Assembly (NCBI GenBank): GCA_963666645.2
Contig: CAXXDB010000003.1
Span: forward strand, 405,494-469,493
Source of the DNA: an uncultured Tenacibaculum sp.
GTDB lineage: Bacteria; Bacteroidota; Bacteroidia; Flavobacteriales; Flavobacteriaceae
DNA: 64,000 nucleotides
Direction: 5' to 3'
Of the stretch, positions 1 through 52,589 are shown piece by piece. The first letter of the stretch is position 1, and the number at the start of each line of letters is the position of its first letter. Position numbers and translations under genes: made by a program. A model generated the notes under the pieces. It did no database searches and was not told where the DNA came from. It worked only from the letters and a program-made list of their open reading frames with translations.

Positions 1-69
1 GGTAGTGGATTCAGCTGCAACTGGTTCTACAAGAACTCTATCTGCTAAAGGTTTAATGTTTAATACCAT
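1..69 (-). CDS. groES: Co-chaperonin GroES, 5' part (runs off window start)
   Basis: Reverse strand from ATG at 69 reads MVLNIKPLADRVLVEPVAAESTT, with the GroES N-terminal IKPLADRV motif. Confidence 0.93.
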   Translation of the reverse strand, partial: MVLNIKPLADRVLVEPVAAESTT

Positions 70-120
70 TTTTTTAAATTTTGATTAATACTTAAAGTTT
101 AATTTTTACACTTTTCTAAT

Positions 121-154
121 TGTCAGAAATTGTGCCATTGAAATAAAACTGACA
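121..154 (-). promoter_or_regulatory. Candidate chaperone promoter/operator TGTCA-N12-TGGCA-N7-TGACA (contains sigma54-like TGGCAC)
   Basis: Same three pentamers (one Y position differs) with identical spacing recur upstream of htpG at 33854-33887. Confidence 0.6.
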
Positions 155-192
155 ATTTTTCTGAACTAATCGGATTTAAAATTAAAAGGAAT

Positions 193-228
193 AAAAAAAT
201 GCCAACTTGTCATTGTTGGCATTTTTTT
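193..228 (-). terminator. Intrinsic terminator-like hairpin after secG
   Basis: aaaaaaatgccaac / gttggcattttttt perfect inverted repeat with A/T tails just past the secG stop. Confidence 0.7.
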
Positions 229-246
229 ATTATCTATATGTAAGTA

Positions 247-582
247 TTATTGTACTGAATCCTTGATTACTGTAGGGATTGTCTCTGCAGGTCTTGTAGT
301 TTCAATATTCTCCAGCGTTTCTTTTAAATCAGGAGTACTGTTGCTGTTTCCTCTGGGAATTGTAAAATTTGATAATAATATTAGTGTAAACATGGCGATG
401 GCAAGAGTCCAAGTAGTACGATCTAAGAAATTATTTGTATTTTGTACTCCGCCAATGTTCATACCTCCACCCCCGAAAGTAGATGATAATCCTCCTCCTT
501 TTGGATTTTGAACCATTACAATTAAAATTAAAGCAATTGCAATTATTAAAATTAAAATTAAAAGTATTGTGTAAGTTGTCAT
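247..582 (-). CDS. secG: Preprotein translocase subunit SecG
   Basis: Two TM segments, QNPKGGGLSSTFGGG loop, FLDRTTW motif. Confidence 0.95.
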   Translation of the reverse strand: MTTYTILLILILIIAIALILIVMVQNPKGGGLSSTFGGGGMNIGGVQNTNNFLDRTTWTLAIAMFTLILLSNFTIPRGNSNSTPDLKETLENIETTRPAETIPTVIKDSVQ

Positions 583-1292
583 TATTTTATGTTTTGCAAA
601 ATTCGTATTTTTTTAATTTGGCTTACAAAGAAACTACTTTTTTCTGGATATTTCAAACTTAATATTTCATAGGCCTTTATTGCATTGCTATATTTCTTTT
701 GTTCCAGATAAATTCTGGCAAGAGTTTCTGTCATTAATATAGGTTGTCGCTTTGTATCATGAGGTTTTTTTATAACAGAAGCATTTCTATTTACTTTAGA
801 TATTTTTGGATTATTGGCTATGAAGCGTTCAATAATATTTTCTTGTAAATTTTTCTCTTTCTTATGAATATTTTTTATTGAATTGCCAGGATTATCAAAC
901 GATAATTGTAACCATTGGTTAAATGAATACGATTCATTTTTTTTAAATGATAAAGATTTTTCTATTCGTAACTCTTTTTCTGTTTTTTTTTGAAGATTTG
1001 AAATAGAATCAGCTATTTTACCTGTTATATTTTTTTTACTTTCAATGGTTTCTTCGAGTAACTCCGAAGTAATAAAATTAAAAAGAACAGTACGATTTAT
1101 AGTATAAGTAGCAGTTATTTTTAATTCATTGTTATATTTAAAACTCTTATGATTTTTTAATCGTTTTAAATATAAAGCTCTTGCAGATTGAAAATAAGGA
1201 TATTCATTAATAATGGTTCTTAGTTCATTTATATTATACCCTTTATCCCTTTCAGGATAATTAAGAATTTGTATATAATTATCTTTTACCAT
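582..1292 (-). CDS. Conserved Bacteroidota hypothetical protein with TPR-like C-terminus
   Basis: YPYFQSARALYLK and MTETLARIYLEQKKY..AIKAYEILSLKYPEKSSFF motifs; usual position between lptE and secG. Confidence 0.75.
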   Translation of the reverse strand: MVKDNYIQILNYPERDKGYNINELRTIINEYPYFQSARALYLKRLKNHKSFKYNNELKITATYTINRTVLFNFITSELLEETIESKKNITGKIADSISNLQKKTEKELRIEKSLSFKKNESYSFNQWLQLSFDNPGNSIKNIHKKEKNLQENIIERFIANNPKISKVNRNASVIKKPHDTKRQPILMTETLARIYLEQKKYSNAIKAYEILSLKYPEKSSFFVSQIKKIRILQNIK

Positions 1293-1825
1293 TTAGCTAC
1301 TGAAGTGTTAAAAATATCCTGATGAATACGAGTTAATATTTCCTCAAGAACAGATTCTAAGAGTGTACCGGATAATTGCTGTGAAGCACCATAATCAGAG
1401 TAAAAGGAAAATTGTTTTTCAAAATCGTCTTTTTCATTTAACTTATTTGTGAAACGAACATTAACAGCAATTGTTAATCGATTTTGTGCTGCGGTTTGAT
1501 TCGCAATAGCACTCATGGGAGTCACTCTATAATCAACTATCTCACCTTCAAATTGTAAATCCCCATCCGATTTTACTAACGTTAAGTTTGTTTGACGAGT
1601 AAATAAATCTTGTAAATCCTGAGTAAAACGTTGACTTAATGTAGGTTCTGTTAAAGGAGCTTGATTAGGAAAAAAATCAATTTGAATCGTTTTTGCATCA
1701 CCCGTATTACCTCCTGTAAAAGAATACACGCCACAGCCGATAAGAGATGTAATGGAAAAAAATAATAATGAGTATATAGTTTTTTTCATTTTTAAATTCA
1801 TAACATCACTCGAATTACAAGTCAT
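1286..1825 (-). CDS. lptE: LptE-family LPS assembly lipoprotein (true start probably the downstream MKK)
   Basis: Lipobox-like LIGC, GC.YSFTG and AAQNRLTI.VNVRF motifs of Bacteroidota LptE-like proteins. Confidence 0.75.
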   Translation of the reverse strand: MTCNSSDVMNLKMKKTIYSLLFFSITSLIGCGVYSFTGGNTGDAKTIQIDFFPNQAPLTEPTLSQRFTQDLQDLFTRQTNLTLVKSDGDLQFEGEIVDYRVTPMSAIANQTAAQNRLTIAVNVRFTNKLNEKDDFEKQFSFYSDYGASQQLSGTLLESVLEEILTRIHQDIFNTSVAKW

Positions 1826-3035
1826 ATTGTTTAATTTTACGATATAAAGTTCGTTCAGAAATTCCCAACTCTTTAGCTGCTAGTTTTCGTTTTCCTCTAT
1901 TTCGTTCCAATGACTTTTTAATCATTTCTTTTTCTTTTTCCTGTAACGACAAGTTTTCATGCTCCTCTATAGTTTCAATAAAATCATAATTATTTTGTGT
2001 AGAAACTTCAGGTATTTGTACAACTCCTATATCATGGGAAGAAGGGGGGTCTTTATATATACGTTGAATCAAACCTCTATTATCTTCCTGTACTTCTTGT
2101 GCATTTTTATTTTGCATCAAGTCCAGAGTTAATTTCTTGAGGTCGTTGATATCGTTGCGCATATCAAATAAGATTTTATACATAATATCCCGTTCGTTAG
2201 AAAAATCATCATTTGATGATTTTTCATCAATTACTACGGGTAAATTCCCCGTGTTATCAGGTAAATATTGAACTAGTATTTTAGAAGAGATAATTCTACT
2301 TTCTTCCATAATTGAAATTTGTTCAGCAAGATTTTTTAATTGTCTGATATTCCCGGAGAAACGATAATTCAGAAGCATATTATTGGCCTTATCATCTAAT
2401 CGAATAACAGGAATTCTGTTTTTTTGAGCAAAGTCAGAAGCAAACTTTCTAAATAATAAATGAATATCATTACCTCTGTTTCGTAAAGGAGGGAGAGAAA
2501 TTTCAATAGTACTCAACCGGTAATATAAATCTTCTCTAAATTTTCCTTTTCTGACAGCTTCCTGCATGTTTACGTTAGTAGCTGCAGTAATACGAACATT
2601 TATTTTTTGGACTTGAGACGATCCAACTTTTATGAATTCTCCGTTTTCTAACACACGGAGTAATCTAACTTGGGTTGTAAGAGGTAATTCGCCTACTTCA
2701 TCTAAAAAAATTGTTCCTCCATCGGCAACTTCAAAGTATCCTCTTCTGGTTTGTGTTGCTCCGGTAAATGCTCCTTTTTCATGACCAAACAGCTCACTAT
2801 CAATAGTTCCTTCAGGAATTGCACCACAGTTTACAGCAATATATTTTGCGTGCTTTCTATGAGATAGTTGATGAATGATTTTCGGAATATTTTCTTTTCC
2901 AACCCCACTCTCTCCGGTAGCCAATACAGAAATATCTGTAGGTGCTACCCGGACAGCTTTTTCAATAGCTCTGTTCAGTTGAATATCATTACCGATAATT
3001 CCGAAGCGTTGTTTTACTGCTTGTAAATTTTCCAT
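1815..3035 (-). CDS. Sigma54-interacting AAA+ enhancer-binding protein with C-terminal Fis-type HTH and no sensor domain
   Basis: Walker A GESGVGKE, intact GAFTGA loop, FLDEVGE Walker B, GISERTLYRKIKQY HTH. Confidence 0.92.
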   Translation of the reverse strand: MENLQAVKQRFGIIGNDIQLNRAIEKAVRVAPTDISVLATGESGVGKENIPKIIHQLSHRKHAKYIAVNCGAIPEGTIDSELFGHEKGAFTGATQTRRGYFEVADGGTIFLDEVGELPLTTQVRLLRVLENGEFIKVGSSQVQKINVRITAATNVNMQEAVRKGKFREDLYYRLSTIEISLPPLRNRGNDIHLLFRKFASDFAQKNRIPVIRLDDKANNMLLNYRFSGNIRQLKNLAEQISIMEESRIISSKILVQYLPDNTGNLPVVIDEKSSNDDFSNERDIMYKILFDMRNDINDLKKLTLDLMQNKNAQEVQEDNRGLIQRIYKDPPSSHDIGVVQIPEVSTQNNYDFIETIEEHENLSLQEKEKEMIKKSLERNRGKRKLAAKELGISERTLYRKIKQYDL

Positions 3036-3117
3036 TTTATTATTCCTTCAGAAACAGGATTTTATTAATATATTCTTTCTTTAAATATTACATTTTTCCT
3101 TTTGAAAAACAGAACTA

Positions 3118-4572
3118 TTAATTATTATCAGAATAATCAACAGCAGTTCCTAAAAGTGTGGTGGAAGTACAATCTTCAATTTTTACATTTACAAAATCTC
3201 CCATTTTATAGTGTTCTTTAGGAAATATAACGACTGTGTTTTGTGTATTACGTCCTTTCCAGTGTGCATCTGATTTCTTTGAAGTTCCTTCAATCAAAAC
3301 TTCCTGAATCTTGTTTACATGTTCTTCAGACCGATATAAGCTATGTTTTTGCTGTAGATTAATAATTTCTTGTAATCTACGTTTTTTTATTGCCAGAGGG
3401 ATATCATCTTCCATTTTTTTAGCAGCAAGAGTTCCTGGTCTTTCAGAATAGATAAACATAAACCCGAAACTATATTTTACTCTCTCCATTAAATCGAGAG
3501 TATTCTGATGATCTTCTTCTGTTTCTCCACAAAAACCGGCAATCATATCCTGACTTAAGTTCACTTCGGGAATTATTTTATAAATATTTTCTACCAGATT
3601 TAAATATTCTTCACGTGTATGCAAACGATTCATGGCTTTTAACATTCTGTTACTGCCACTTTGAATGGGTAAATGAATGTATTTACAAATGTTTTTATGT
3701 TTAGCCATTACATGAATTACGTCTAACGTCATATCCTGTGGATTTGATGTAGAAAAACGAAAGCGTATTTTAGGAAATTCAGTAGCACACATATCCAGCA
3801 ATTGAGCAAAATTTAACGTAGTAGCTTGTGCCATTTCAGAGGCTTTGTGAAAATCTTTTTTCAATCCTCCTCCGTACCATAAATATGAATCTACATTTTG
3901 ACCTAACAGAGTAATCTCTTTATAATTCTTTTCATACATAGAACTAATCTCCCCGATAATGCTTTGAGGATCTCTACTCCGTTCTCTTCCACGTGTAAAT
4001 GGGACTACACAAAATGTACACATATTATCACATCCTCTGGTTATGGATATAAAAGCAGTTACACCATTAGAATTTAAACGTACAGGAGAAACGTCAGCAT
4101 AAGTTTCTTCTTTTGATAAAATTACATTTATAGCATCTCTTCCTGCTTCAACTTCTTCAATGAGGCTTGGTAAATCCCGATAAGCATCCGGTCCTGCAAC
4201 TAAGTCTATGATTTTCTCTTCTTCCAGAAATTTTGATTTTAATCGCTCGGCCATACAGCCCAATACACCAACTTTCATTTTAGGATTAATTCTTTTAGCA
4301 TGATTGTATTTTTGTAGCCTGTTACGTACTGTTTGCTCAGCTTTTTCACGTATAGAGCATGTATTTACTAAAACCAAGTCAGCTTCATCAATATTACCAG
4401 TAGTATTAAAGCCTTGTCTATCAAGAATAGCGGCAACAATTTCACTATCATTCATATTCATCTGACAGCCATAGCTTTCTATAAAAAGTTTTTTTGTATT
4501 GCCTTTTTTTTGTTTTGTTAATAGAGGTTTCCCTTGTTTTTTTTCATTAATGACTTTTTTAATCTGATACAT
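3118..4572 (-). CDS. miaB: tRNA-2-methylthio-N6-dimethylallyladenosine synthase
   Basis: ESYGCQMN UPF0004 domain, radical SAM CDNMCTFC, C-terminal TRAM; ATG at 4572 chosen over the ORF-track start. Confidence 0.96.
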   Translation of the reverse strand: MYQIKKVINEKKQGKPLLTKQKKGNTKKLFIESYGCQMNMNDSEIVAAILDRQGFNTTGNIDEADLVLVNTCSIREKAEQTVRNRLQKYNHAKRINPKMKVGVLGCMAERLKSKFLEEEKIIDLVAGPDAYRDLPSLIEEVEAGRDAINVILSKEETYADVSPVRLNSNGVTAFISITRGCDNMCTFCVVPFTRGRERSRDPQSIIGEISSMYEKNYKEITLLGQNVDSYLWYGGGLKKDFHKASEMAQATTLNFAQLLDMCATEFPKIRFRFSTSNPQDMTLDVIHVMAKHKNICKYIHLPIQSGSNRMLKAMNRLHTREEYLNLVENIYKIIPEVNLSQDMIAGFCGETEEDHQNTLDLMERVKYSFGFMFIYSERPGTLAAKKMEDDIPLAIKKRRLQEIINLQQKHSLYRSEEHVNKIQEVLIEGTSKKSDAHWKGRNTQNTVVIFPKEHYKMGDFVNVKIEDCTSTTLLGTAVDYSDNN

Positions 4573-4626
4573 AATTCTGTTTCTTCTACGGAGAGAACAA
4601 AGATACAATCAAATTTTGAGATTTAG

Positions 4627-4639
4627 TGACAACTTGTCA
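4627..4639. promoter_or_regulatory. TGACA-N3-TGTCA palindrome next to the miaB operon -7 box
   Basis: tgacaacttgtca perfect inverted repeat; TATCTTTG (-7 consensus TAnnTTTG) on the minus strand about 20 nt closer to miaB; 12/13 identical copy at 200-212. Confidence 0.5.
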
Positions 4640-4745
4640 TTAATTTTACTGATGTTACTCAATAAAAGTACTAAATTTATACCTATGATTGTTAATAATT
4701 TATTGGATTTATATACAAATCATTTGGTTTAGTTAGGCATTTAAT

Positions 4746-5205
4746 CTAATATTTTTAATTAAAAGGGGATTTGTAATGACCTTTCTGCTTAGAAGATTAC
4801 CAAAAGTGTTTTTCCATAAAACTTCTTTTAGATTGACAGCAGTACTCGTTCAGGTAATTTTTCAAATATCCCGTATGATGATGCAGTCCTGCGATTCGGA
4901 ATTTAAGGTTCATAATAACCCTATGTGATTCGGGAAAGTTTCCTCCTCTTATCATCCAAAGTATAATGGAGTCAAATTTTTAACGTCTTTATGGATTGAT
5001 ACTTTATCCGTTTATCTTTGTTAATCTCCTCATTATAGACTATGTAATTTTTGATAAATGCATCAGGACTCTCTTTACCGGAACAGATAATTTCCTGGAA
5101 TCTTTATAGTTCTCATTATTTTACATTTGAACAATCAACAGGTTTTTTGTCGTAAGTTAATCCTATGAATCAACTCGGCAAAAGTAATTCCTTTCTTATT
5201 GATGT
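4746..5205 (-). mobile_element. IS1595-family transposase remnant with internal deletion
   Basis: Broken frames read KKGITFAELIHRINLRQKTC*LFKCKIM and GGNFPESHRVIMNLKFRIAGLHHHTGYLKNYLNEYCCQSKRSFME, the N- and C-terminal IS1595 motifs. Confidence 0.75.
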
Positions 5206-5295
5206 TTATAAAATAAACAATATAAATCTAGATGGATTTATTAGCAAAAAAGTATATTTATTTACTGACTTAGATCCTTATTTTATTTATCCAGT

Positions 5296-7686
5296 TTAAG
5301 AACTACATATTAAACAACCTTCTGATCCTTCTGGATTTTTCGAAGCTTCTAACATAGCTTTAAATTCTTGTGGAATTATTGACTTATCTGTTTCCTTTTT
5401 ATTTTCTTTTGATAAAGTAAACTGAATTGCATTTACTGCTGATTTTGTACGTAAATAATACATTCCCGTTTTTAAACCACTTTTCCAGGCGTAAAAATGC
5501 ATGGATGTTAATTTAGCAAAATCAGGATCTTTCATAAATAAGTTTAGCGACTGAGATTGATCAATAAAATATCCTCTATGACGAGCCATATCAATAATAT
5601 CTTTCATACTCATTTCCCAAACAGTTTTATATAAATCTTTTAAGTTTTGTGGAATAACTTCAATATGTTGAATAGATCCATTGGCACGTATGATTTCTTC
5701 TTTTATGTCATTATTCCATAAATCCAGTTCAACTAAATCTTCTAATAGGTGTTTATTTACAACAATAAATTCACCTGATAATACTCTGCGGGTATAGATA
5801 TTAGAAGTATATGGCTCAAAGGCTTCATTATTTCCTAATATTTGAGATGTAGAGGCTGTAGGCATTGGTGCTATTAGTAACGAGTTTCGTACCCCATGTT
5901 TAATAACTTGTTCTCTTAGTGTTTTCCAATCCCATCTTCCACTTAAATCTTCATCTTTAATTCCCCACATATTATATTGAAATTCTCCTTCAGCTATTGG
6001 AGAATCTTTAAATGTGGAATAAGCACCTTTTACTTTTGCAATTTCCATAGATGAGGTAACTGCGGCAAAATATAAAGTTTCAAAAATTTCCTGATTTATT
6101 TTTTTTGCTTCATCATTGGTAAAAGGCAGACGTAACATTATTAAAGCATCTGCCAGACCCTGAATTCCTAAACCAACAGGGCGATGACGCATATTTGAAT
6201 TTTCAGCTTCTTTTATAGGATAATAATTACGATCTATAACGGTATCTAGATTTCTAATAACTTTTTTAGTTACTTCGAATAACTTGTTATAATCGAAGAA
6301 TTTATTTCCATTTTTATCTTCGGTAACAAACATTGGTATTGCTATAGATGCTAAATTACATACTGCAATTTCATCTTCTGCTGTATATTCCATAATTTCA
6401 GTACATAAATTCGAAGAGCGAATAGTGCCTAAGTTTTTTTGATTGGATTTACGGTTTACAGAGTCTTTATATAACATATAGGGAGTTCCGGTTTCTATTT
6501 GAGATTCCAAAATTTTTTCCCATAAATAACGAGCTTTAACGGTTTTTCTACCTTTGTCTGCCTCCTCATATCCTGTGTATAAACGTTCAAATTCTTCTCC
6601 GTATGTATCAAATAAATGCGGACATTCGTTAGGACACATTAATGTCCAATCTCTATCTTCCTGTACACGCTTCATGAACAAATCAGAGATCCACATAGCA
6701 TAAAACAAATCTCTGGCTCTCATTTCTTCTTTTCCATGATTTTTCTTCAAATCCAGGAATTCGAAAATATCAGCATGCCATGGTTCTAAATATATAGCGA
6801 ACGATCCTTTACGTTTTCCTCCTCCTTGATCTACATAGCGGGCTGTATCGTTAAACACACGAAGCATTGGTACAATGCCATTTGAATTACCGTTAGTTCC
6901 GCGAATGTAAGACCCGGTAGCCCTAATGTTGTGTATGGACAAGCCTATTCCTCCAGCAGATTGAGAAATTTTTGCAGCCTGTTTTAATGTATCATAAATA
7001 CCATTAATACTATCATCTTGCATTTGTAATAAGAAGCATGATGACATTTGTGGCTTTGGAGTACCGGAATTGAATAATGTAGGAGTAGCATGGGTAAAGT
7101 ATTTTTTACTCATTAACTCATATGTAGCAATAGCCTCATCGATATCTTCTTTATGAATACCAATAGAGACACGCATTAGCATTTGTTGAGGACGTTCAAC
7201 AATTTTACCATTTAATTTAAACAAATAAGAACGTTCTAATGTTTTAAATCCAAAGAAATCATAGTTAAAATCTCTACTGTAAATTATTGTAGAGTCTAAT
7301 TTCTCGGCATTTTTCATAATGATGTTATATACATCATCTGCTAATAATGGGGCTTCTTTTCCTGTATTCGGATTTACATAATTATACAAACCGGTCATCG
7401 TTTCGGAAAAAGATTTTTTTGTATTTTTATGTAAATTTGAAACAGCAACTCTGGCAGCTAGTTTAGCGTAGTCCGGGTGGGCAGTGGTCATAGTTGCTGC
7501 AACTTCTGCTGCTAAATTATCTAATTTAGAAGTGGTAACTCCATCATATAATCCTTCAATGACACGCATTGCCACTTTTACCGGATCAACAATTTTGTTT
7601 AATCCATAACACATCTTTTTTATTCTTTCTGTGATTTTATCGAACATCACAGGTTCTTTTCTATCATCTCTTTTAACTACATGCAT
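5296..7686 (-). CDS. nrdA: Ribonucleoside-diphosphate reductase class Ia alpha subunit
   Basis: N-terminal ATP cone (VVKRD), [28 protein letters not shown]-terminal CLIC. Confidence 0.97.
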
Positions 7687-31918: not shown

Positions 31919-33814
31919 TTATTCAGATAATGTTATTAAATCATACGATTGCTTAATAAAGTTTGTTAGTTCTTTACCATGTAATAAGTTTTGAGATAAT
32001 CTGGCTAAATCAAAGGCCTGAGAAATTAATTGCTTTTGTTTTTCCTCATCGGCATTTAAGATACCTGAAACTAATTCATGATTTGTATTAACCGCCAAGT
32101 TATACATCTCCGGCATATTACCCATTCCCGTCATACCCCCACCTGTAGTACTCATTTCTTTCATACGGCGCATAAATTCGGGAACAGTAATTAAGAAAGG
32201 AGAAGCAGAAGAGTCCATTGCTTCTAGCTGTACTGTATAGCTTGAATTGTTAACAGCACTTTCAATAACGGGTTTTAATTTCTCTTTTTCTTCATCTGAA
32301 AGTTTTGAAATTACTGTGTCATCCTTTTTAATTAAATTATCAATATGGTCAGCATCTACACGTTTAAATTGAATTTTAGCATCTCCCGATGATGTTTCTA
32401 ATTTTTGAATTAAATGAGATACTATAGGGGAATCGAGTAGCACTACTTCGTACCCTTTTGCTTTTGCATTTTGTATATAGCTATGTTGTGCATCTTTACC
32501 GGAAGCATATAAAATTATATGATTTCCATCTTTGTCAGTTTGTGTGTTTTTTGTTTTTTCAACTAATTCATCGAAAGTAAAGAAAGTATCATTTACCGTT
32601 GGATATAAAGAGAATTTCTTTGCTTTATCAAAGAATTTATCTTCAGATAACATTCCATATTCGATAATTACCTTAATATCATTCCATTTTTGCTCAAAAT
32701 CTTCACGATCTTTTTTAAATAAAGAAGAAAGTTTATCAGCTACTTTTTTGGTAATATATCCTGATATTTTCTTTACAGCACCATCAGCTTGCAAGTATGA
32801 TCGTGATACATTTAACGGAATATCCGGTGAATCAATTATCCCCTTTAGCATTTGTAAGAAATCAGGAACGATTCCTTCAACGTTGTCGGTTACAAAAACT
32901 TGATTTTGATATAATTGAATCTTATCCTTTTGAATATCAATATTTTGAGACAGACGAGGAAAATATAAAATGCCTGTTAAGTTAAATGGATAATCAACAT
33001 TTAAGTGGATGTTAAATAAGGGTTCTTCAAATTGAGCGGGGTATAACTCTCTATAAAATGTTTTATAATCTTCTGCTTCTAAATCTGCAGGTTTTTTTGT
33101 CCAGGCAGGATTGGTATTATTAATAATATTGTTTACCTCTCTTGTTTCCGGTTTTGCATCTTCAGCGGCGTCTTTTGGTAAGGGTAATGTTTCAGTTTTT
33201 GTTCCGAATTTAATTGGAATTTGATTGAAACGATTATATTTTGTTAATAAACTGGAAATTTTGTGATCTTCTAAGAACTCTTTTTCATCGTCAGAAATAT
33301 GTAAAATAATTTCTGTGCCTCTTTCAGTTTTATCATGTGGTTTTAATGTGTATTCCGGAGAACCGTCACAAATCCAGTGAGCTGCAGATTCATCTTTATA
33401 GGATTTAGTAATAATCTCTACTTTGTCTGCAACCATAAAGGCAGAGTAGAAGCCTAACCCGAAATGACCAATAACTCCAGTCTCATTATTAGAATCTTTA
33501 TACTTTTCTAAAAATTCTTCTGCTCCTGAAAATGCAATTTGATTGATGTATTTTTCCACTTCCTTTGTAGTCATTCCTAAACCGTAATCGATGATATGAA
33601 GTGTTTTGCTGTCTTTATTAATCTTAATTTCTATTTGCGGATTGCCATGTTCAATCTTTGCTTCATCTATAGAAATTAAGTGCTTTAATTTGGTTGTGGC
33701 ATCTGTTGCATTAGAAATTAATTCACGTAAAAATATCTCATGATCTGAATACAAGAATTTTTTAATTAATGGGAAAATATTTTCTACTGATACATTAATA
33801 TTTCCTTTACTCAT
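31919..33814 (-). CDS. htpG: Chaperone HtpG (Hsp90)
   Basis: EIFLRELISNATDA, IGHFGLGFYSAFMVA, DSPDIPLNVSRS. Confidence 0.97.
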   Translation of the reverse strand: MSKGNINVSVENIFPLIKKFLYSDHEIFLRELISNATDATTKLKHLISIDEAKIEHGNPQIEIKINKDSKTLHIIDYGLGMTTKEVEKYINQIAFSGAEEFLEKYKDSNNETGVIGHFGLGFYSAFMVADKVEIITKSYKDESAAHWICDGSPEYTLKPHDKTERGTEIILHISDDEKEFLEDHKISSLLTKYNRFNQIPIKFGTKTETLPLPKDAAEDAKPETREVNNIINNTNPAWTKKPADLEAEDYKTFYRELYPAQFEEPLFNIHLNVDYPFNLTGILYFPRLSQNIDIQKDKIQLYQNQVFVTDNVEGIVPDFLQMLKGIIDSPDIPLNVSRSYLQADGAVKKISGYITKKVADKLSSLFKKDREDFEQKWNDIKVIIEYGMLSEDKFFDKAKKFSLYPTVNDTFFTFDELVEKTKNTQTDKDGNHIILYASGKDAQHSYIQNAKAKGYEVVLLDSPIVSHLIQKLETSSGDAKIQFKRVDADHIDNLIKKDDTVISKLSDEEKEKLKPVIESAVNNSSYTVQLEAMDSSASPFLITVPEFMRRMKEMSTTGGGMTGMGNMPEMYNLAVNTNHELVSGILNADEEKQKQLISQAFDLARLSQNLLHGKELTNFIKQSYDLITLSE

Positions 33815-33853: not shown

Positions 33854-33887
33854 TGTCAAAAAAAATACCAAAGCATTTCTTATGACA
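33854..33887 (-). promoter_or_regulatory. Candidate chaperone promoter/operator TGTCA-N12-TGGTA-N7-TGACA
   Basis: Identical spacing to the groES element at 121-154; extra TGTCA copy immediately upstream. Confidence 0.6.
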
Positions 33888-33902
33888 ATATGACATATAA
33901 GA

Positions 33903-49769: not shown

Positions 49770-52589
49770 CTATAATTCTTTCTTTAAAAACTTTGCTGTA
49801 TAACTGGTTTTGTGTTTTGCTACTTGCTCTGGAATTCCGGTAACTAAGATTTGACCGCCACCTTTACCGCCTTCCATACCCATATCAATAATATAATCAG
49901 CAAGTTTTATCACATCTAAGTTGTGTTCAATAATTAAAACAGTATTTCCTTTTTCTACCAACTTGCTTAACACTTTCATTAATACACGGATATCTTCAAA
50001 ATGTAATCCGGTAGTAGGCTCATCCAGTATATAGAAAGTATTTCCGGTATCTCTCTTAGAGAGTTCTGAAGCTAACTTTACGCGTTGACTCTCTCCACCG
50101 GATAAAGTGGTTGATGGTTGCCCTAAAGTAATGTATCCCAATCCAACATCTTGAATGGTTTTTAATTTTCTGTATATTTTAGGGATGTGTTCAAAAAATC
50201 CGACCGCCTGATTAATTGTCATCTCTAAAACATCAGAAACAGATTTCCCTTTATAACGAATTTCCAGTGTTTCTCTGTTGAAACGTTTTCCCTGACAGAT
50301 TTCGCATTCAACATGAACATCGGGTAAGAAATTCATTTCAATAACTCGTAAACCACCACCCTGACAGGTTTCACATCGTCCACCTTTTACATTAAAACTA
50401 AATCGTCCGGATTTATAACCACGAATAGAAGCTTCCGGTATTTTAGCAAATAAATTTCTGATTTCATTAAAGACTCCGGTATAAGTCGCCGGATTAGAAC
50501 GCGGTGTTCTTCCAATAGGAGATTGATCAATATTGATAACCTTATCAACATGTTCCAGTCCTTTGATGTTTTTATAAGGCATTGGCTCTTTTACACCTCT
50601 GTAAATGTGAGCATTTAAAACTGGATATAATGTTTCATTGATTAAAGTTGATTTACCACTTCCGGAAACTCCGGTAACACAAATCATTCTCCCTAAAGGA
50701 AATTCAACAGAAACATTTTTTAAATTGTTCCCGGCAGCACCAATAAGTTTAATTGAGTTTCCATTTCCTTTTCTTCTTTTTTCAGGGATTTCAATTGTTC
50801 TTCTTTTCCATAAATAATCGGAGGTAAGTGTAGGGTGATTCTTTAAGTCCTCAAAAGATCCTTTACTAATAATTTCTCCGCCATGCCTTCCTGCACCAGG
50901 ACCAATATCCAATACATAATCAGCATTTCTAATCATATCCTCATCGTGTTCTATAACTAAAACAGAGTTGCCAATATCACGAAGCTTTAATAAAGAATCA
51001 ATTAATTTTTGATTATCTCGTTGATGCAGTCCGATACTAGGTTCATCTAAAATGTAAAGGACACCTACTAATTGTGAACCTATTTGAGTTGCCAGACGAA
51101 TACGTTGTGCTTCTCCGCCGGATAGTGATTTTGACACTCTGTCAAGCGTTAAATAATTGAGTCCGACATCTAATAAAAATTGAATTCTTGATCGGATTTC
51201 CTTTAAAATTTCAGAAGAAATTATAAGCTGTTTATCAGATATTTTTTTTTCAATTTCATGAAACCATCTGGATAATTCGCTTATATCCATTTGTGATAAA
51301 TTACTAATGTTTTTATCCAAAATTCTAAAATGTAATGCTTCTTTTTTCAATCTTTTTCCTTCACATACCGAGCATTTAACTTCATCCATAAAACCTTTAG
51401 CCCAACGTTTTATAGAAGAACTATCGGTATTTTTATATTGATTTTTTATAAAAGAGGTAATTCCTTCAAAATCGATTTGATAACTTCGGGTCACTCCGGC
51501 AGTTTTGGATTGAATTTCAAATGATTCTTTTCCTCCGTTGAGAATAATATCCAGAGCTTCATCAGGAATCCTATTAATAGGATCTGTTAATTTAAATGTA
51601 TAGCGTTCTGCTATATTTTCTAACTGTTTAAAAATCCAGCTATTTTTTTGTTCTCCCAAGGGAGATATTCCTCCATTTTTTATGGAAATCTGATTATCAG
51701 GAATTATTTTTTTTATATTTACTTCATTCGTAACCCCCAATCCATTACAAAGTTCACAAGCTCCTTTAGGTGAATTAAAAGAAAACGTATTGGGCTCCGG
51801 GTTCGGATATGCAATTCCTGTGGTCGGACACATGAGTTCTCTGCTGAAATACCTTGGTTTTATATTATTTGCATCAGTGACCATTAAAATATTATCTCCG
51901 GTGTGTAAAGCAGTTTTAATGGTTTCTTCTAAACGTTTTTCAGTATCAGAATTTACAACCAGCCGATCGATAACTACCTCAATATCGTGAGTTTCATATC
52001 GATTGAGTTTCATGCCCTTTTCAAGCTCTCGTATTTTTCCATCTACACGGACACGAATAAAACCTTGTTTAGAAATTTGTCCGAATAATTCTCTGTAGTG
52101 TCCTTTTCTTGACTTAATTAGAGGAGCAAGAATAGCAATGCGTTTTCCTGAAAAATCTTTTAAAATGAGTTCTTTGATTTGATTATCGGAATAACTAATC
52201 ATTTTTTCTTCTGTATTATACGAATAGGCATCAGCAGTACGCGAAAAAAGCAATCTCAGAAAATCATAAATTTCAGTAATAGTCCCAACAGTAGATCGTG
52301 GGCTTTTATTCGTAGTTTTCTGCTCGATTGAAATTACAGGTGATAAGCCATCAATCTTATCAACGTCAGGTCTTTCCGGGCTACCTAAAAATTGACGTGC
52401 ATAAGCAGAAAATGTTTCAACATATCGTCTTTGTCCTTCTGCATAAATGGTGTCAAAGGCTAATGAAGATTTACCGCTACCGCTTAAACCGGTAATTACC
52501 ACCAGCTTTTCACGGGGTATTTTTACATCAATATTTTTTAAGTTATGAACACGTACTCCGTAAACTTCGATAAATTTCTGATCTTTCAA
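49770..52589 (-). CDS. uvrA: Excinuclease ABC subunit A
   Basis: HNLKNI, GLSGSGKSSL, two LSGGE signatures, zinc fingers, DEPTTGLH. Confidence 0.97.
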   Translation of the reverse strand: MKDQKFIEVYGVRVHNLKNIDVKIPREKLVVITGLSGSGKSSLAFDTIYAEGQRRYVETFSAYARQFLGSPERPDVDKIDGLSPVISIEQKTTNKSPRSTVGTITEIYDFLRLLFSRTADAYSYNTEEKMISYSDNQIKELILKDFSGKRIAILAPLIKSRKGHYRELFGQISKQGFIRVRVDGKIRELEKGMKLNRYETHDIEVVIDRLVVNSDTEKRLEETIKTALHTGDNILMVTDANNIKPRYFSRELMCPTTGIAYPNPEPNTFSFNSPKGACELCNGLGVTNEVNIKKIIPDNQISIKNGGISPLGEQKNSWIFKQLENIAERYTFKLTDPINRIPDEALDIILNGGKESFEIQSKTAGVTRSYQIDFEGITSFIKNQYKNTDSSSIKRWAKGFMDEVKCSVCEGKRLKKEALHFRILDKNISNLSQMDISELSRWFHEIEKKISDKQLIISSEILKEIRSRIQFLLDVGLNYLTLDRVSKSLSGGEAQRIRLATQIGSQLVGVLYILDEPSIGLHQRDNQKLIDSLLKLRDIGNSVLVIEHDEDMIRNADYVLDIGPGAGRHGGEIISKGSFEDLKNHPTLTSDYLWKRRTIEIPEKRRKGNGNSIKLIGAAGNNLKNVSVEFPLGRMICVTGVSGSGKSTLINETLYPVLNAHIYRGVKEPMPYKNIKGLEHVDKVINIDQSPIGRTPRSNPATYTGVFNEIRNLFAKIPEASIRGYKSGRFSFNVKGGRCETCQGGGLRVIEMNFLPDVHVECEICQGKRFNRETLEIRYKGKSVSDVLEMTINQAVGFFEHIPKIYRKLKTIQDVGLGYITLGQPSTTLSGGESQRVKLASELSKRDTGNTFYILDEPTTGLHFEDIRVLMKVLSKLVEKGNTVLIIEHNLDVIKLADYIIDMGMEGGKGGGQILVTGIPEQVAKHKTSYTAKFLKKEL

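What the first reader, a model, noticed from the sequence alone, without database searches (positions are those of the whole stretch)
200..4639. Sensor-less GAFTGA activator near groES with matching TG(A/C)CA-ACT-TGTCA sites at its own operon and upstream of groES
Seen: tgacaacttgtca (4627-4639) sits about 20 nt upstream of the -7 box of the miaB-activator-lptE-secG operon. A 12/13-identical tgccaacttgtca (200-212) lies about 60 nt upstream of the groES TGGCAC, inside the secG terminator hairpin. htpG has a related tgacaatatgaca (33883-33895). The protein at 1815-3035 has an intact GAFTGA loop and HTH but no N-terminal sensor domain. Known: enhancer-binding proteins act from upstream dyad sites and often autoregulate. 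Inference: this activator may drive a sigma54 chaperone regulon and control its own operon.
Basis: partly seen in the sequence, partly recalled or inferred. Interest (0 to 1): 0.68.

Follow-up and report, generated by a model that had tools for sequence, protein, structure and literature searches.

The report
Heat-shock activator and its enhancer sites
A sensor-less sigma-54 activator gene next to groES shares a conserved 13-bp palindrome with its own operon promoter and with the sigma-54 promoters of the chaperone genes, which makes it the likely, still untested, master regulator of the heat-shock genes in flavobacteria and their relatives.

Summary
They are instances of one motif, TGNCA-N3-TGNCA.

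- **Own genome:** 21 copies in all. 10 lie outside real genes, and 6 of those sit at groES, dnaK, grpE, htpG, lon and the miaB-activator operon.
- **31 relatives:** the motif lies upstream of miaB in 28/28, grpE 24/30, dnaK 22/29, groES 21/26 and htpG 21/27. Only 1 copy occurs in 623 kb of other DNA.
- **Phasing:** at the chaperone genes it lies upstream of a sigma-54-type promoter at spacings of about 12 + n×10.4 bp, on one face of the helix.
- **Link to the activator:** where the activator gene is separated from miaB, miaB lacks the motif (0/5 genomes). In two of the five it sits in front of the activator instead.
- **Sole activator:** in three small genomes this protein is the only sigma-54 activator, yet the chaperone promoters persist.

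The sigma-54 chaperone promoters are published (Flavobacterium psychrophilum, 2021). I found no paper that names the enhancer or the activator. DNA binding, the stress signal and the sign of autoregulation are all inferred. Verdict: real, supported, a new variant of a known kind.

The parts
1..69 (-). 5' end of groES (ATG at 69; the gene runs off the window)
   Evidence: Translation MVLNIKPLADRVLVEP.... GroES orthologues lie downstream of secG in 26 of 28 related loci.
121..137 (-). sigma-54-type promoter of groES: TGGCAC-AATTT-CTGA(CA), with -24 intact and -12 reading GA instead of GC
   Evidence: The same TGGCAY-N5-yTGA element occurs at dnaK and lon in this genome. It is conserved in 23 of 26 relatives, with TTGC/TAGC at -12 in other families. 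Transcription starts behind sigma-54 promoters were mapped for the same genes in F. psychrophilum (PMC9723704).
150..154 (-). promoter-proximal half-site TGTCA, 12 nt upstream of the -24 TGG
   Evidence: Conserved as aaaaaTGTCAgtttt at the same spacing through the genus. It occupies the position of the proximal half of the full dyad at grpE and htpG.
200..212 (.). distal enhancer dyad of groES (coding strand TGACA-AGT-TGGCA), built from the loop and 3' arm of the secG terminator
   Evidence: An exact TGNCA-N3-TGNCA lies upstream of groES in 21 of 26 relatives. The loop TGACA/TGTCA is kept although the stems differ between families. Gaps to the -24 TGG are 43-44, 54, 62-64 and 73-76.
190..231 (-). 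intrinsic terminator of the miaB...secG operon (17-pair stem, 8-nt loop AAUGACAA, T run)
   Evidence: It is the only terminator-like site in 1-5400. Its folding energy is -19.8 kcal/mol, z = -7.4.
247..582 (-). secG
   Evidence: PF03840 E = 2e-19; TIGR00810.
582..1292 (-). conserved 236-aa protein of unknown function with a weak TPR-like C-terminus; its reading frame overlaps lptE and secG
   Evidence: No family reaches threshold. There are weak TPR hits at residues 190-217. Its C-terminal ~45 residues are found at this position in most Bacteroidia loci examined and in 8 of the 20 loci examined from other classes of the phylum.
1286..1789 (-). lptE
   Evidence: PF04390 E = 2.3e-19.
1815..3035 (-). 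sensor-less sigma-54 activator (enhancer-binding protein, EBP), 406 aa: AAA+ 13-258, flexible linker 263-362 containing a conserved helix 279-308, Fis-type HTH 364-404
   Evidence: Pfam. The invariant columns cover the Walker A motif, the core of the GAFTGA loop (G88-A93), D112/E113 of Walker B and the core of the HTH recognition helix. AlphaFold2 gives mean pLDDT 79.6. An orthologue is present in 148 of 151 genomes of the phylum.
3118..4572 (-). miaB, first gene of the operon
   Evidence: TIGR01574 437 bits, above the 355 cut-off.
4598..4605 (-). -7 box TATCTTTG of the sigma-A promoter of the operon
   Evidence: It matches the Bacteroidota consensus TAnnTTTG (PMC9723704). It is conserved as TATCTTTG/TATATTTG in relatives.
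4627..4639 (.). dyad at the operon's own promoter (coding strand TGACA-AGT-TGTCA), spanning about -46 to -34; the probable autoregulatory operator
   Evidence: An exact dyad lies upstream of miaB in 28 of 28 relatives and in 13 of 16 further Bacteroidia loci with miaB-EBP linkage. The gap to the -7 box is 16-21 nt in 33 of 43 sites and 8-11 nt in 6; one site lies downstream of the box.
33883..33895 (.). enhancer dyad of htpG (coding strand TGTCA-TAT-TGTCA)
   Evidence: Present in 21 of 27 relatives, at a gap of 12-13 nt to the TGG in 20 of them.
33856..33870 (-). sigma-54-type promoter of htpG: TGGTAT-TTTTT-TTGA
   Evidence: TGGTATTTTTTTTGA is near-invariant in the genus. htpG has a mapped sigma-54 promoter in F. 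psychrophilum.
31919..33814 (-). htpG
   Evidence: 632-aa ORF starting MSKGNINVSVENIFPLIKKFLYSDHEIF..., with 60-90% identical orthologues in relatives. The name rests on recognising the sequence; no family search was run on it.

Best explanation
The 406-aa protein at 1815-3035 is a PspF-like enhancer-binding protein (EBP): an AAA+ motor, a long flexible tether and a Fis-type HTH, with no sensor domain. I propose that its HTH dimer binds the palindrome TGNCA-N3-TGNCA.

**At the protein-quality-control genes** (groES-groEL, dnaK, grpE, htpG and clpB, and in a different layout lon) the palindrome acts as an enhancer for sigma-54 promoters.
- It sits either directly upstream of the -24 element, with a 12-nt gap and its centre near -45 (grpE, htpG; clpB one turn further).
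- Or it sits 4-7 helical turns further up, with a half-site kept at the -45 position (groES, dnaK).
- It is always on the same face of the helix.
- From there the AAA+ ring, on its roughly 100-residue tether, would remodel sigma-54 holoenzyme using ATP.
- At lon the dyad instead lies about 118 nt downstream of the promoter, just before the ATG.

**At its own operon** (miaB-EBP-lptE-x-secG) the same palindrome lies on or next to the -33 region of an ordinary sigma-A promoter. There it most likely represses, which would hold the activator level constant.

**At groES** the distal site is built into the loop and 3' arm of the secG terminator, so one 42-bp element ends one operon and enhances the next.

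**Shown here:** the sequences, their conservation, the phasing, the gene linkage, the domain content and the presence of rpoN.
**Inferred:** that this protein is what binds the palindrome, that it activates, and that autoregulation is negative.
**Unknown:** the stress signal. My best guess is an inhibitor acting in trans, such as free DnaK or GroEL, or the receiver-type second activator.
For: 1. **Motif in this genome.** There are 21 exact dyads, about what base composition predicts (my estimate). Nine fall outside my crude ORF calls and a tenth (lon) lies in a falsely extended ORF. Six of these 10 are at groES, dnaK, grpE, htpG, lon and miaB.
2. **Conservation in 31 relatives.** miaB 28/28, grpE 24/30, dnaK 22/29, groES 21/26, htpG 21/27, against 1 dyad in 623 kb of the remaining fetched DNA. 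clpB has a degenerate dyad exactly 22 nt from its promoter in 15 of the 16 relatives that have a sigma-54-like promoter there.
3. **Phasing.** Gaps to the -24 TGG are 12-13, 22-23, 42-44, 52-54, 62-65 and 73-76. Rayleigh R = 0.86 at a period of 10.3 bp for 22 distinct gene-gap values.
4. **Linkage to the EBP.** In the 5 genomes where the EBP is not next to miaB, miaB has no dyad. In two of them the dyad lies in front of the EBP: G027, 20 nt before TAACTTTG, and G147.
5. **Sole activator.** In G020, G026 and G019 this EBP is the only PF00158 protein. Sigma-54-type promoters with dyads or near-dyads remain there at grpE, dnaK and htpG. Sigma-54 promoters cannot fire without an EBP (established knowledge).
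6. **Only EBP with a DNA-binding domain.** The other EBP in this genome is receiver + AAA+ with no HTH.
7. **Breadth.** The composite pattern dyad-N10-15-TGGYA gives 67 hits against 24 control hits in 30 genomes of the class, and 47 of the 67 are at gap 12-13. In 91 genomes of other classes it gives 69 against 67. In other orders the genes downstream of the pattern include clpB, groES, dnaK and grpE, plus a thioredoxin-like and a rhomboid-like ORF named from their first residues only.
8. **Published support.** Transcription-start mapping in F. psychrophilum places sigma-54 promoters at groESL, lon, dnaK, grpE-dnaJ, htpG and clpB, and leaves the activator unassigned (PMC9723704).
9. **Structure.** The AlphaFold2 model has a confident AAA+ domain and HTH joined by a largely disordered linker of about 100 residues.
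Against: - No binding or expression data exist for this protein in any organism I could find.
- A dyad in front of the regulator's operon is also what one would see if another factor controlled both the chaperones and the EBP.
- The core of the HTH recognition helix (RTLYRK, within ISERTLYRK) is invariant through the phylum, and the motif is also carried by the Gemmatimonadota homologues. Yet the dyad is absent near the EBP in other classes and in 9 of the 13 Bacteroidales-type loci examined where the EBP is unlinked from miaB; 2 carry an exact dyad and 2 only degenerate or overlapping versions. The HTH sequence therefore does not predict the motif.
- An enhancer centred near -45 is unusually close for an EBP.
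- In this genus the -12 element reads GA, not GC.
- A lon dyad 11-14 nt before the ATG would equally suit a repressor or roadblock.
- Relatives share ancestry, so the counts are not independent events.
Confidence: 0.7

Rival explanations
1. The palindrome is the operator of a different, unidentified transcription factor, for example a heat-shock repressor. That factor would control the chaperone genes and also the operon that holds the EBP. The EBP would then activate the sigma-54 promoters from solution or from another site.
For: The dyad lies on or next to promoters: the -33 region at miaB and about -45 at grpE and htpG. At lon it lies 11-14 nt before the ATG, which is a roadblock-like position. 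The HTH recognition helix does not co-vary with presence of the dyad. EBPs without a DNA-binding domain exist in this same genome.
Against: At the sigma-54 promoters the dyad never overlaps the -24/-12 core. It keeps a strict helical phase over 12-76 nt, which fits a co-operating activator better than a blocker. No other conserved element was apparent upstream of these promoters in the aligned regions, although I ran no de novo motif search. The EBP keeps a confidently folded HTH whose core is invariant, so it must bind something. Where the EBP has left miaB, miaB lacks the dyad in 5 of 5 genomes and the dyad lies in front of the EBP in 2 of them. Genomes of 1.0-1.6 Mb keep both.
Confidence: 0.15
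2. The chaperone promoters are driven mainly by the second EBP (receiver + AAA+, no HTH). The sensor-less EBP would only anchor or modulate it, for example in mixed hexamers, or would act as a repressor at the dyads.
For: The second EBP lies directly behind grpE-dnaJ on the same strand in G025, and in the same co-directional cluster in G028 and G029. The two proteins have complementary domain sets, HTH without sensor and sensor without HTH.
Against: G020, G026 and G019 have no second EBP, yet they keep the sigma-54 chaperone promoters and the dyads. The second EBP is unlinked to chaperone genes in this genome and in G013, G103, G147 and G127. The sensor-less EBP has an intact GAFTGA loop and Walker motifs, so it is not a crippled anchor.
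Confidence: 0.1
3. The two 13-mers in 200-4639 resemble each other by chance. On this view the groES copy is merely terminator sequence.
For: Within the window the excess is modest. Eight of the 13 bases at 200-212 belong to the 3' arm of a hairpin stem.
Against: The loop TGACA/TGTCA and its N3 spacing to the stem's TGGCA or TGCCA are kept across families whose stems differ. The motif is found upstream of miaB in 28 of 28 relatives, against a background of 1 in 623 kb.
Confidence: 0.01

Closest known systems
PspF and the phage-shock (psp) system of Escherichia coli
   Same: Both are EBPs with no N-terminal sensor, just an AAA+ domain plus a C-terminal HTH. Both control a stress regulon through sigma-54. 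PspF also binds at its own sigma-70 promoter and represses it, and its activity is set in trans by an inhibitor, PspA (established knowledge). The PspF AAA+ domain aligns at E = 4e-57, and the pspF model TIGR02974 matches end to end.
   Different: This protein is not a PspF equivalog: 260 bits against a cut-off of 443.55. It is closer in sequence to the Aquifex NtrC-family proteins (PDB 4l4u, 1ny5), NifA and FleQ. No pspA-like gene is adjacent; the neighbours are miaB, lptE and secG. The regulon is the cytoplasmic chaperone and protease set, not membrane-stress genes. The enhancer is centred near -45 or strictly phased, whereas PspF sites lie about 80-126 bp upstream and need IHF. The linker is about 100 residues long.
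SM4 (sigma-54) promoters of the protein-quality-control genes of Flavobacterium psychrophilum (Guerin et al. 2021, PMC9723704), and the sigma-54 promoter enrichment at chaperone genes in Bacteroidota (PLoS One 2025, PMC12316311)
   Same: The gene set is the same (groESL, dnaK, grpE-dnaJ, htpG, lon, clpB) and so is the promoter type. The orthologous EBP-lptE pair is listed there as THC0290_0733/0732.
   Different: In the text I could read or search, those papers stop at the promoters. The first states that three EBPs exist and leaves the activators unassigned. Neither mentions a palindrome, inverted repeat, TGTCA box or UAS. The enhancer, its phasing, the autoregulatory site and the assignment to the miaB-linked sensor-less EBP come from the present analysis and from parallel notes of this scan.
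Sigma-32 (RpoH) and HrcA-CIRCE heat-shock control
   Same: Both co-ordinate groESL, dnaK-grpE-dnaJ, htpG, lon and clpB. A homeostatic loop through the chaperones is the expected logic.
   Different: The machinery is different: sigma-54 plus an ATP-driven activator, instead of an alternative sigma-70-family factor or a repressor. No CIRCE element with 3 or fewer mismatches exists in this genome. Whether rpoH or hrcA is present was not tested.
FleQ of Pseudomonas aeruginosa, which has enhancer sites downstream of the promoter (Jyot et al. 2002, cited from memory)
   Same: It is a precedent for an EBP acting from a site in the leader, downstream of the -24/-12 element, as the lon dyad would require.
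   Different: FleQ has an N-terminal domain and controls flagellar genes. Here the downstream position is seen only at lon, in about a third of relatives.
NtrC at glnAp1/glnLp (established knowledge)
   Same: It is an EBP that activates sigma-54 promoters from dyads and represses sigma-70 promoters that overlap the same dyads, including the promoter that expresses it.
   Different: NtrC has a receiver domain and 17-bp sites about 100-140 bp upstream, and its dependence on helical phase is weak.

Membership tests
Bacterial enhancer-binding protein (sigma-54 activator, AAA+) | Sigma-54 interaction AAA+ domain (PF00158) with Walker A and B motifs | tested here: met
   PF00158 E = 1.4e-66 over residues 13-179. 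G41, S43, G44, G46, K47 and D112, E113 are invariant in 34 homologues.
Bacterial enhancer-binding protein (sigma-54 activator, AAA+) | GAFTGA loop that contacts sigma-54 | tested here: met
   ELFGHEKGAFTGA occupies residues 81-93. Residues S80 to A93 are all invariant.
Bacterial enhancer-binding protein (sigma-54 activator, AAA+) | rpoN (sigma-54) in the same genome | tested here: met
   PF04552 at C8:369994-370467, E = 2.7e-51, in a 493-aa open frame.
Bacterial enhancer-binding protein (sigma-54 activator, AAA+) | C-terminal DNA-binding HTH that recognises an upstream dyad | tested here: inconclusive
   HTH_8 is present (E = 3.8e-13) and confidently folded. A conserved dyad exists at the right places. 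That the protein binds this dyad was not tested.
Bacterial enhancer-binding protein (sigma-54 activator, AAA+) | ATP-dependent opening of sigma-54 promoters | not testable with these tools
   Needs in vitro transcription or genetics.
PspF-type (sensor-less) EBP | No N-terminal regulatory domain | tested here: met
   The AAA+ domain starts at residue 13. The open frame is 410 codons for a 406-aa protein. Orthologues align from residue 1-6.
PspF-type (sensor-less) EBP | Equivalog score to PspF (TIGR02974 or NF008622) | tested here: not met
   260.3 bits against a cut-off of 443.55, and 218.7 against 529.
PspF-type (sensor-less) EBP | Adjacent pspA-type inhibitor or psp operon | tested here: not met
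   The neighbours are miaB, lptE, a TPR-like protein of unknown function, secG and groES.
Sigma-54 (-24/-12) promoter | TGGCA with GG at -24 | tested here: met
   groES has TGGCAC, dnaK TGGCAT and lon TGGCAC; htpG and clpB have TGGTAT; grpE has TGGCAA.
Sigma-54 (-24/-12) promoter | GC at -12 (TTGC), 5 nt after TGGCAC | tested here: inconclusive
   In this genome the element reads CTGA, TTGA or TTGT, so G is kept and C is lost. Several other relatives, including some in the same genus, have TTGC, TAGC or GTGC at the same spacing for the same genes.
Sigma-54 (-24/-12) promoter | Transcription start about 12 nt downstream and dependence on rpoN | not testable with these tools
Starts were mapped for the orthologous genes in F. 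psychrophilum.
Flavobacterial sigma-54 protein-quality-control regulon (SM4 clusters B254/B415) | Sigma-54-type promoters at groESL, dnaK, grpE-dnaJ, htpG, lon and clpB | tested here: met
   All six are found in this genome and in 16-28 relatives each.
HrcA-CIRCE heat-shock control | CIRCE inverted repeat TTAGCACTC-N9-GAGTGCTAA at chaperone genes | tested here: not met
   No hit with 3 or fewer mismatches in the 2.63-Mb genome. The 7 hits with 4 mismatches are not at chaperone genes.

The most novel reading that the evidence does not exclude
This sensor-less, DNA-bound activator is the master heat-shock regulator of the class Bacteroidia, filling the role that sigma-32 or HrcA fills elsewhere. 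It would receive its signal in trans by one of two routes.

- **Chaperone titration:** free DnaK or GroEL holds the activator off through the conserved linker helix (residues 279-308).
- **Mixed AAA+ rings:** it forms rings with the second activator, which has a receiver domain but no DNA-binding domain. The two genes together would then make a 'split NtrC'.

The second activator lies in the grpE-dnaJ gene cluster in three flavobacterial families, which would close a feedback loop.
Probability: 0.2. Interest if true: 0.8.

Novelty: new variant of a known kind. Interest (0 to 1): 0.62.

Why it matters
How Bacteroidota switch on their heat-shock and protein-quality-control genes has no experimentally defined regulator in the papers I could search. 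Sigma-54 promoters have been mapped or predicted at these genes, but no activator or enhancer has been assigned. The phylum includes gut Bacteroides, fish pathogens such as Flavobacterium and Tenacibaculum, and abundant marine flavobacteria.

This analysis names one specific, nearly universal gene and one specific 13-bp site, with clear predictions that can be tested in a week of EMSA and reporter work. It also shows three unusual design features:

- an enhancer at about -45 that is strictly helically phased;
- a terminator hairpin that doubles as the next operon's enhancer;
- an activator with no sensor of its own.

If confirmed, it gives a handle for studying stress responses in these organisms and for annotating the regulon across thousands of genomes.

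Tried and rejected
1. **HTH against motif.** The recognition helix ISERTLYRK is the same in genomes with and without the dyad, so this gave no evidence either way.
2. **Other classes of the phylum.** I found no dyad near the EBP in 20 loci and no excess of the composite pattern (69 against 67 control hits). The motif is specific to the class, or it has changed elsewhere.
3. **Bacteroidales-type loci** (Bacteroides, Phocaeicola, Prevotellaceae, Mediterranea, Paraprevotella). These have EBP-lptE-x-secG without miaB and without an exact dyad at the EBP. G059, G155 and G103 have only degenerate versions or none.
4. **Canonical sigma-54 promoters.** TGGCAC-N5-TTGC gives no intergenic hit in this genome; the -12 element had to be relaxed.
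5. **Rfam on 1-5400.** Only sub-threshold hits: BTnc005 at 26.5 bits against a gathering score of 174.8, and Thr_leader. I treat both as noise from the terminator.
7. **CIRCE.** Absent.
8. **Literature.** Eight searches found the two promoter papers but nothing on the activator or enhancer. Sabree et al. 2009 (PMC2780778), cited for sigma-54 control of grpE and groES, is not held. Francke et al. 2011 does not mention miaB, lptE, secG or groES in its main text.
9. **Sigma-70 consensus scan.** Uninformative for Bacteroidota promoters.

Full report
**1. Observation**

- TGACAACTTGTCA is at 4627-4639 and TGCCAACTTGTCA at 200-212. TGACAATATGACA is at 33883-33895.
- All genes in 1-4600 lie on the minus strand: miaB (4572-3118), a 406-aa sigma-54 activator (3035-1815), lptE, a 236-aa unknown protein, secG and then groES (ATG at 69).
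- The activator (an enhancer-binding protein, EBP) has the sigma-54 AAA+ domain from residue 13, an AAA+ lid and a C-terminal HTH_8. Only four open codons precede its ATG, so it has no sensor domain.
- rpoN is present.
- The only terminator-like hairpin in 1-5400 is at 190-231 on the minus strand. miaB to secG therefore looks like one operon, and the 200-212 site lies in that hairpin's loop and 3' arm.
- Within the window alone the similarity of the 13-mers is only suggestive.

**2. The motif and the promoters in this genome**

- Read on the coding strand, the sites generalise to TGNCA-N3-TGNCA, a 13-bp palindrome whatever N is.
- The 2.63-Mb genome (31% G+C) has 21 exact copies, about what base composition predicts (my estimate). 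Nine lie outside my crude ORF calls, and a tenth (lon) lies in a falsely extended ORF.
- Six of these ten are at groES, dnaK, grpE, htpG, lon and miaB.
- groES, dnaK and lon carry TGGCAY-N5-yTGA. grpE has TGGCAA-N5-TTGT, and htpG and clpB have TGGTAT-N5-TTGw. These are sigma-54-type promoters whose -12 GC has become GA or GT in this lineage.
- At grpE and htpG the dyad ends 12 nt before the TGG.
- At groES a half-site TGTCA (150-154) holds that position, and the full dyad lies 63 nt upstream of the TGG.
- dnaK has a half-site 19 nt upstream of the TGG and the full dyad 54 nt upstream of it.
- The miaB dyad has no sigma-54 promoter. It ends 21 nt before TATCTTTG, the Bacteroidota -7 box.

**3. 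Conservation**

- *Gene order.* miaB-EBP-lptE-x-secG-groES is kept throughout the order, and miaB-EBP-lptE in much of the phylum. The EBP is found in 148 of 151 genomes of the phylum.
- *Dyad counts in 31 relatives.* An exact dyad lies within 220 nt upstream of miaB in 28/28, grpE 24/30, dnaK 22/29, groES 21/26 and htpG 21/27. The other 623 kb fetched hold one dyad.
- *groES.* The loop of the secG terminator keeps TGACA or TGTCA at N3 from the stem's TGGCA or TGCCA, even where the stem sequences differ between families. The terminator is therefore a dual-use element.
- *clpB.* A degenerate dyad (for example AGACAAAATGACT) lies exactly 22 nt from TGGTAT in 15 of the 16 relatives with a sigma-54-like promoter there.
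- *lon.* There is no upstream dyad. In 10 of 30 relatives, and in this genome, an exact dyad lies about 118 nt downstream of the promoter and 11-14 nt before the ATG.
- *Phasing.* Gaps from dyad to TGG cluster at 12-13, 22-23, 42-44, 52-54, 62-65 and 73-76. This is one helical face, with Rayleigh R = 0.86 at a 10.3-bp period for 22 distinct gene-gap values.
- *Pattern scan.* Dyad-N10-15-TGGYA over 121 genomes gave 67 hits against 24 control hits in the 30 genomes of the same class, 47 of them at gap 12-13. In 91 genomes of other classes it gave 69 against 67.
- *Other orders.* The genes downstream of the pattern include clpB, groES, dnaK and grpE, plus a rhomboid-like and a thioredoxin-like ORF that I named from their first residues only.
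- *Named relatives.* The best match is an uncultured Tenacibaculum at 81% identity. The dyad is seen before miaB in Tenacibaculum, Kordia, Psychroserpens, Lacinutrix, Salinimicrobium, Flavobacterium, Aquimarina, Chryseobacterium, Algicola, Sediminibacterium and Phaeodactylibacter.

**4. Which protein reads the dyad**

Four lines of evidence point to the EBP.
- *The dyad goes with the EBP rather than miaB.* In five genomes where the two genes are unlinked, miaB has no dyad. In G027 and G147 the dyad lies in front of the EBP.
- *It is the only EBP here with a DNA-binding domain.* The other EBP in this genome is receiver + AAA+ with no HTH.
- *It can be the sole EBP.* In G020 and G026 (1.6 Mb, 99-100% complete) and in G019 (1.0 Mb) it is the only PF00158 protein. 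Sigma-54-type promoters with dyads or near-dyads remain at grpE, dnaK and htpG there. Since sigma-54 promoters need an EBP, it must drive them in those genomes.
- *The phasing fits a partner of the holoenzyme better than a blocker.*

The AlphaFold2 model (34 sequences, mean pLDDT 79.6) shows a confident AAA+ domain (1-258) and HTH (364-404). They are joined by about 100 largely disordered residues that contain one conserved helix, 279-308. That tether is long enough to let the ring reach sigma-54 from a site centred near -45.

**5. Autoregulation**

At the operon promoter the dyad sits 16-21 nt upstream of the -7 box in 33 of 43 sites and 8-11 nt upstream in 6. In one genome it lies just downstream of the box. 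These positions vary but always overlap the promoter. That fits steric repression of a sigma-A promoter, as with NtrC and PspF at their own promoters. This is inference only.

**6. What is known**

- Guerin et al. 2021 mapped sigma-54 (SM4) promoters at groESL, lon, dnaK, grpE-dnaJ, htpG and clpB in F. psychrophilum. They noted three EBPs and assigned none.
- A 2025 survey found sigma-54 promoter enrichment at chaperone genes in Bacteroidota and Planctomycetota, again without activators or enhancers.
- Eight literature searches found nothing on the enhancer or the activator.
- Earlier notes of this scan on this genome and four others reached the same reading. They share my methods and are not independent evidence.

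**7. Rivals and caveats**

- *A separate repressor.* It could bind the dyad and control both the chaperones and the EBP operon (my estimate 0.15).
- *The receiver-type EBP.* It could be the main driver or a partner (0.1). It lies behind grpE-dnaJ in three families but is absent from the three smallest genomes.
- *Chance.* Excluded.
- *Weak points.* There are no binding or expression data. The enhancer is unusually close to the promoter. The -12 element is degenerate in this genus. The HTH does not co-vary with the motif. Related genomes are not independent. rpoN was not verified in the single-EBP genomes.

**8. Verdict**

What is there is a PspF-like, sensor-less sigma-54 activator with a conserved, helically phased 13-bp enhancer at the protein-quality-control genes and an operator at its own operon. 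This extends a published promoter map by naming the probable regulator and its site. It is a new variant of a known kind. Interest is 0.62, and my confidence in the explanation is 0.7.

Noticed in passing
own genome C3:519780-520955 (outside the window); L363, L364, L365: The second sigma-54 activator (receiver + AAA+, GSFTGA loop, no HTH, 391 aa) lies directly behind grpE-dnaJ on the same strand in G025. In G028 and G029 it lies behind grpE-dnaJ and two ABC-transporter-like ORFs (named from their first residues only). It is unlinked in this genome. Its domain set is the complement of the sensor-less activator's, so the two might work together.
   Followed up: partly
own genome C8:80165-80177 (outside the window): lon carries an exact dyad (TGTCATATTGACA) 13 nt before its real ATG, about 118 nt downstream of its sigma-54-type promoter. 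The same layout occurs in 10 of 30 relatives. It could be a downstream enhancer or a roadblock.
   Followed up: partly
window 4640-5295: About 650 nt between nrdA (ribonucleotide reductase large subunit; my reading of the ORF at 5296-7686, no family search run) and the miaB promoter hold no ORF over 52 aa and no Rfam match. That is unusually long for this compact genome.
   Followed up: no
window 122-225 (+ strand): There is a weak Rfam match to Bacteroides sRNA BTnc005 (26.5 bits against a gathering score of 174.8, E = 0.005), antisense to the groES promoter region and secG terminator. It is probably noise from the hairpin.
   Followed up: no
window 582-1292 (-): A 236-aa protein of unknown function lies in the operon. 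Its C-terminal ~45 residues (weakly TPR-like) are found at this position in most Bacteroidia loci examined and in 8 of the 20 loci examined from other classes of the phylum. It is a candidate partner of the activator, with no evidence either way.
   Followed up: partly
own genome C8:375364-375376 and C3:29128-29140 (outside the window): Two further intergenic exact dyads. One lies between an asparaginase-like gene and a membrane zinc-peptidase-like gene, 28 nt before the latter. The other lies 113 nt downstream of a DjlA-like J-domain protein. The gene names are my reading of the first residues; no family search was run. Neither has a sigma-54-type promoter nearby.
   Followed up: partly
L312-L317: Gemmatimonadota and Longimicrobiales genomes encode full-length, sensor-less homologues (34-39% identity over residues 5-406). 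The architecture is therefore older than the Bacteroidota.
   Followed up: no
window 51132-51144: An exact dyad TGACACTCTGTCA lies 1058 nt inside an 811-aa gene. It is probably a chance copy.
   Followed up: no
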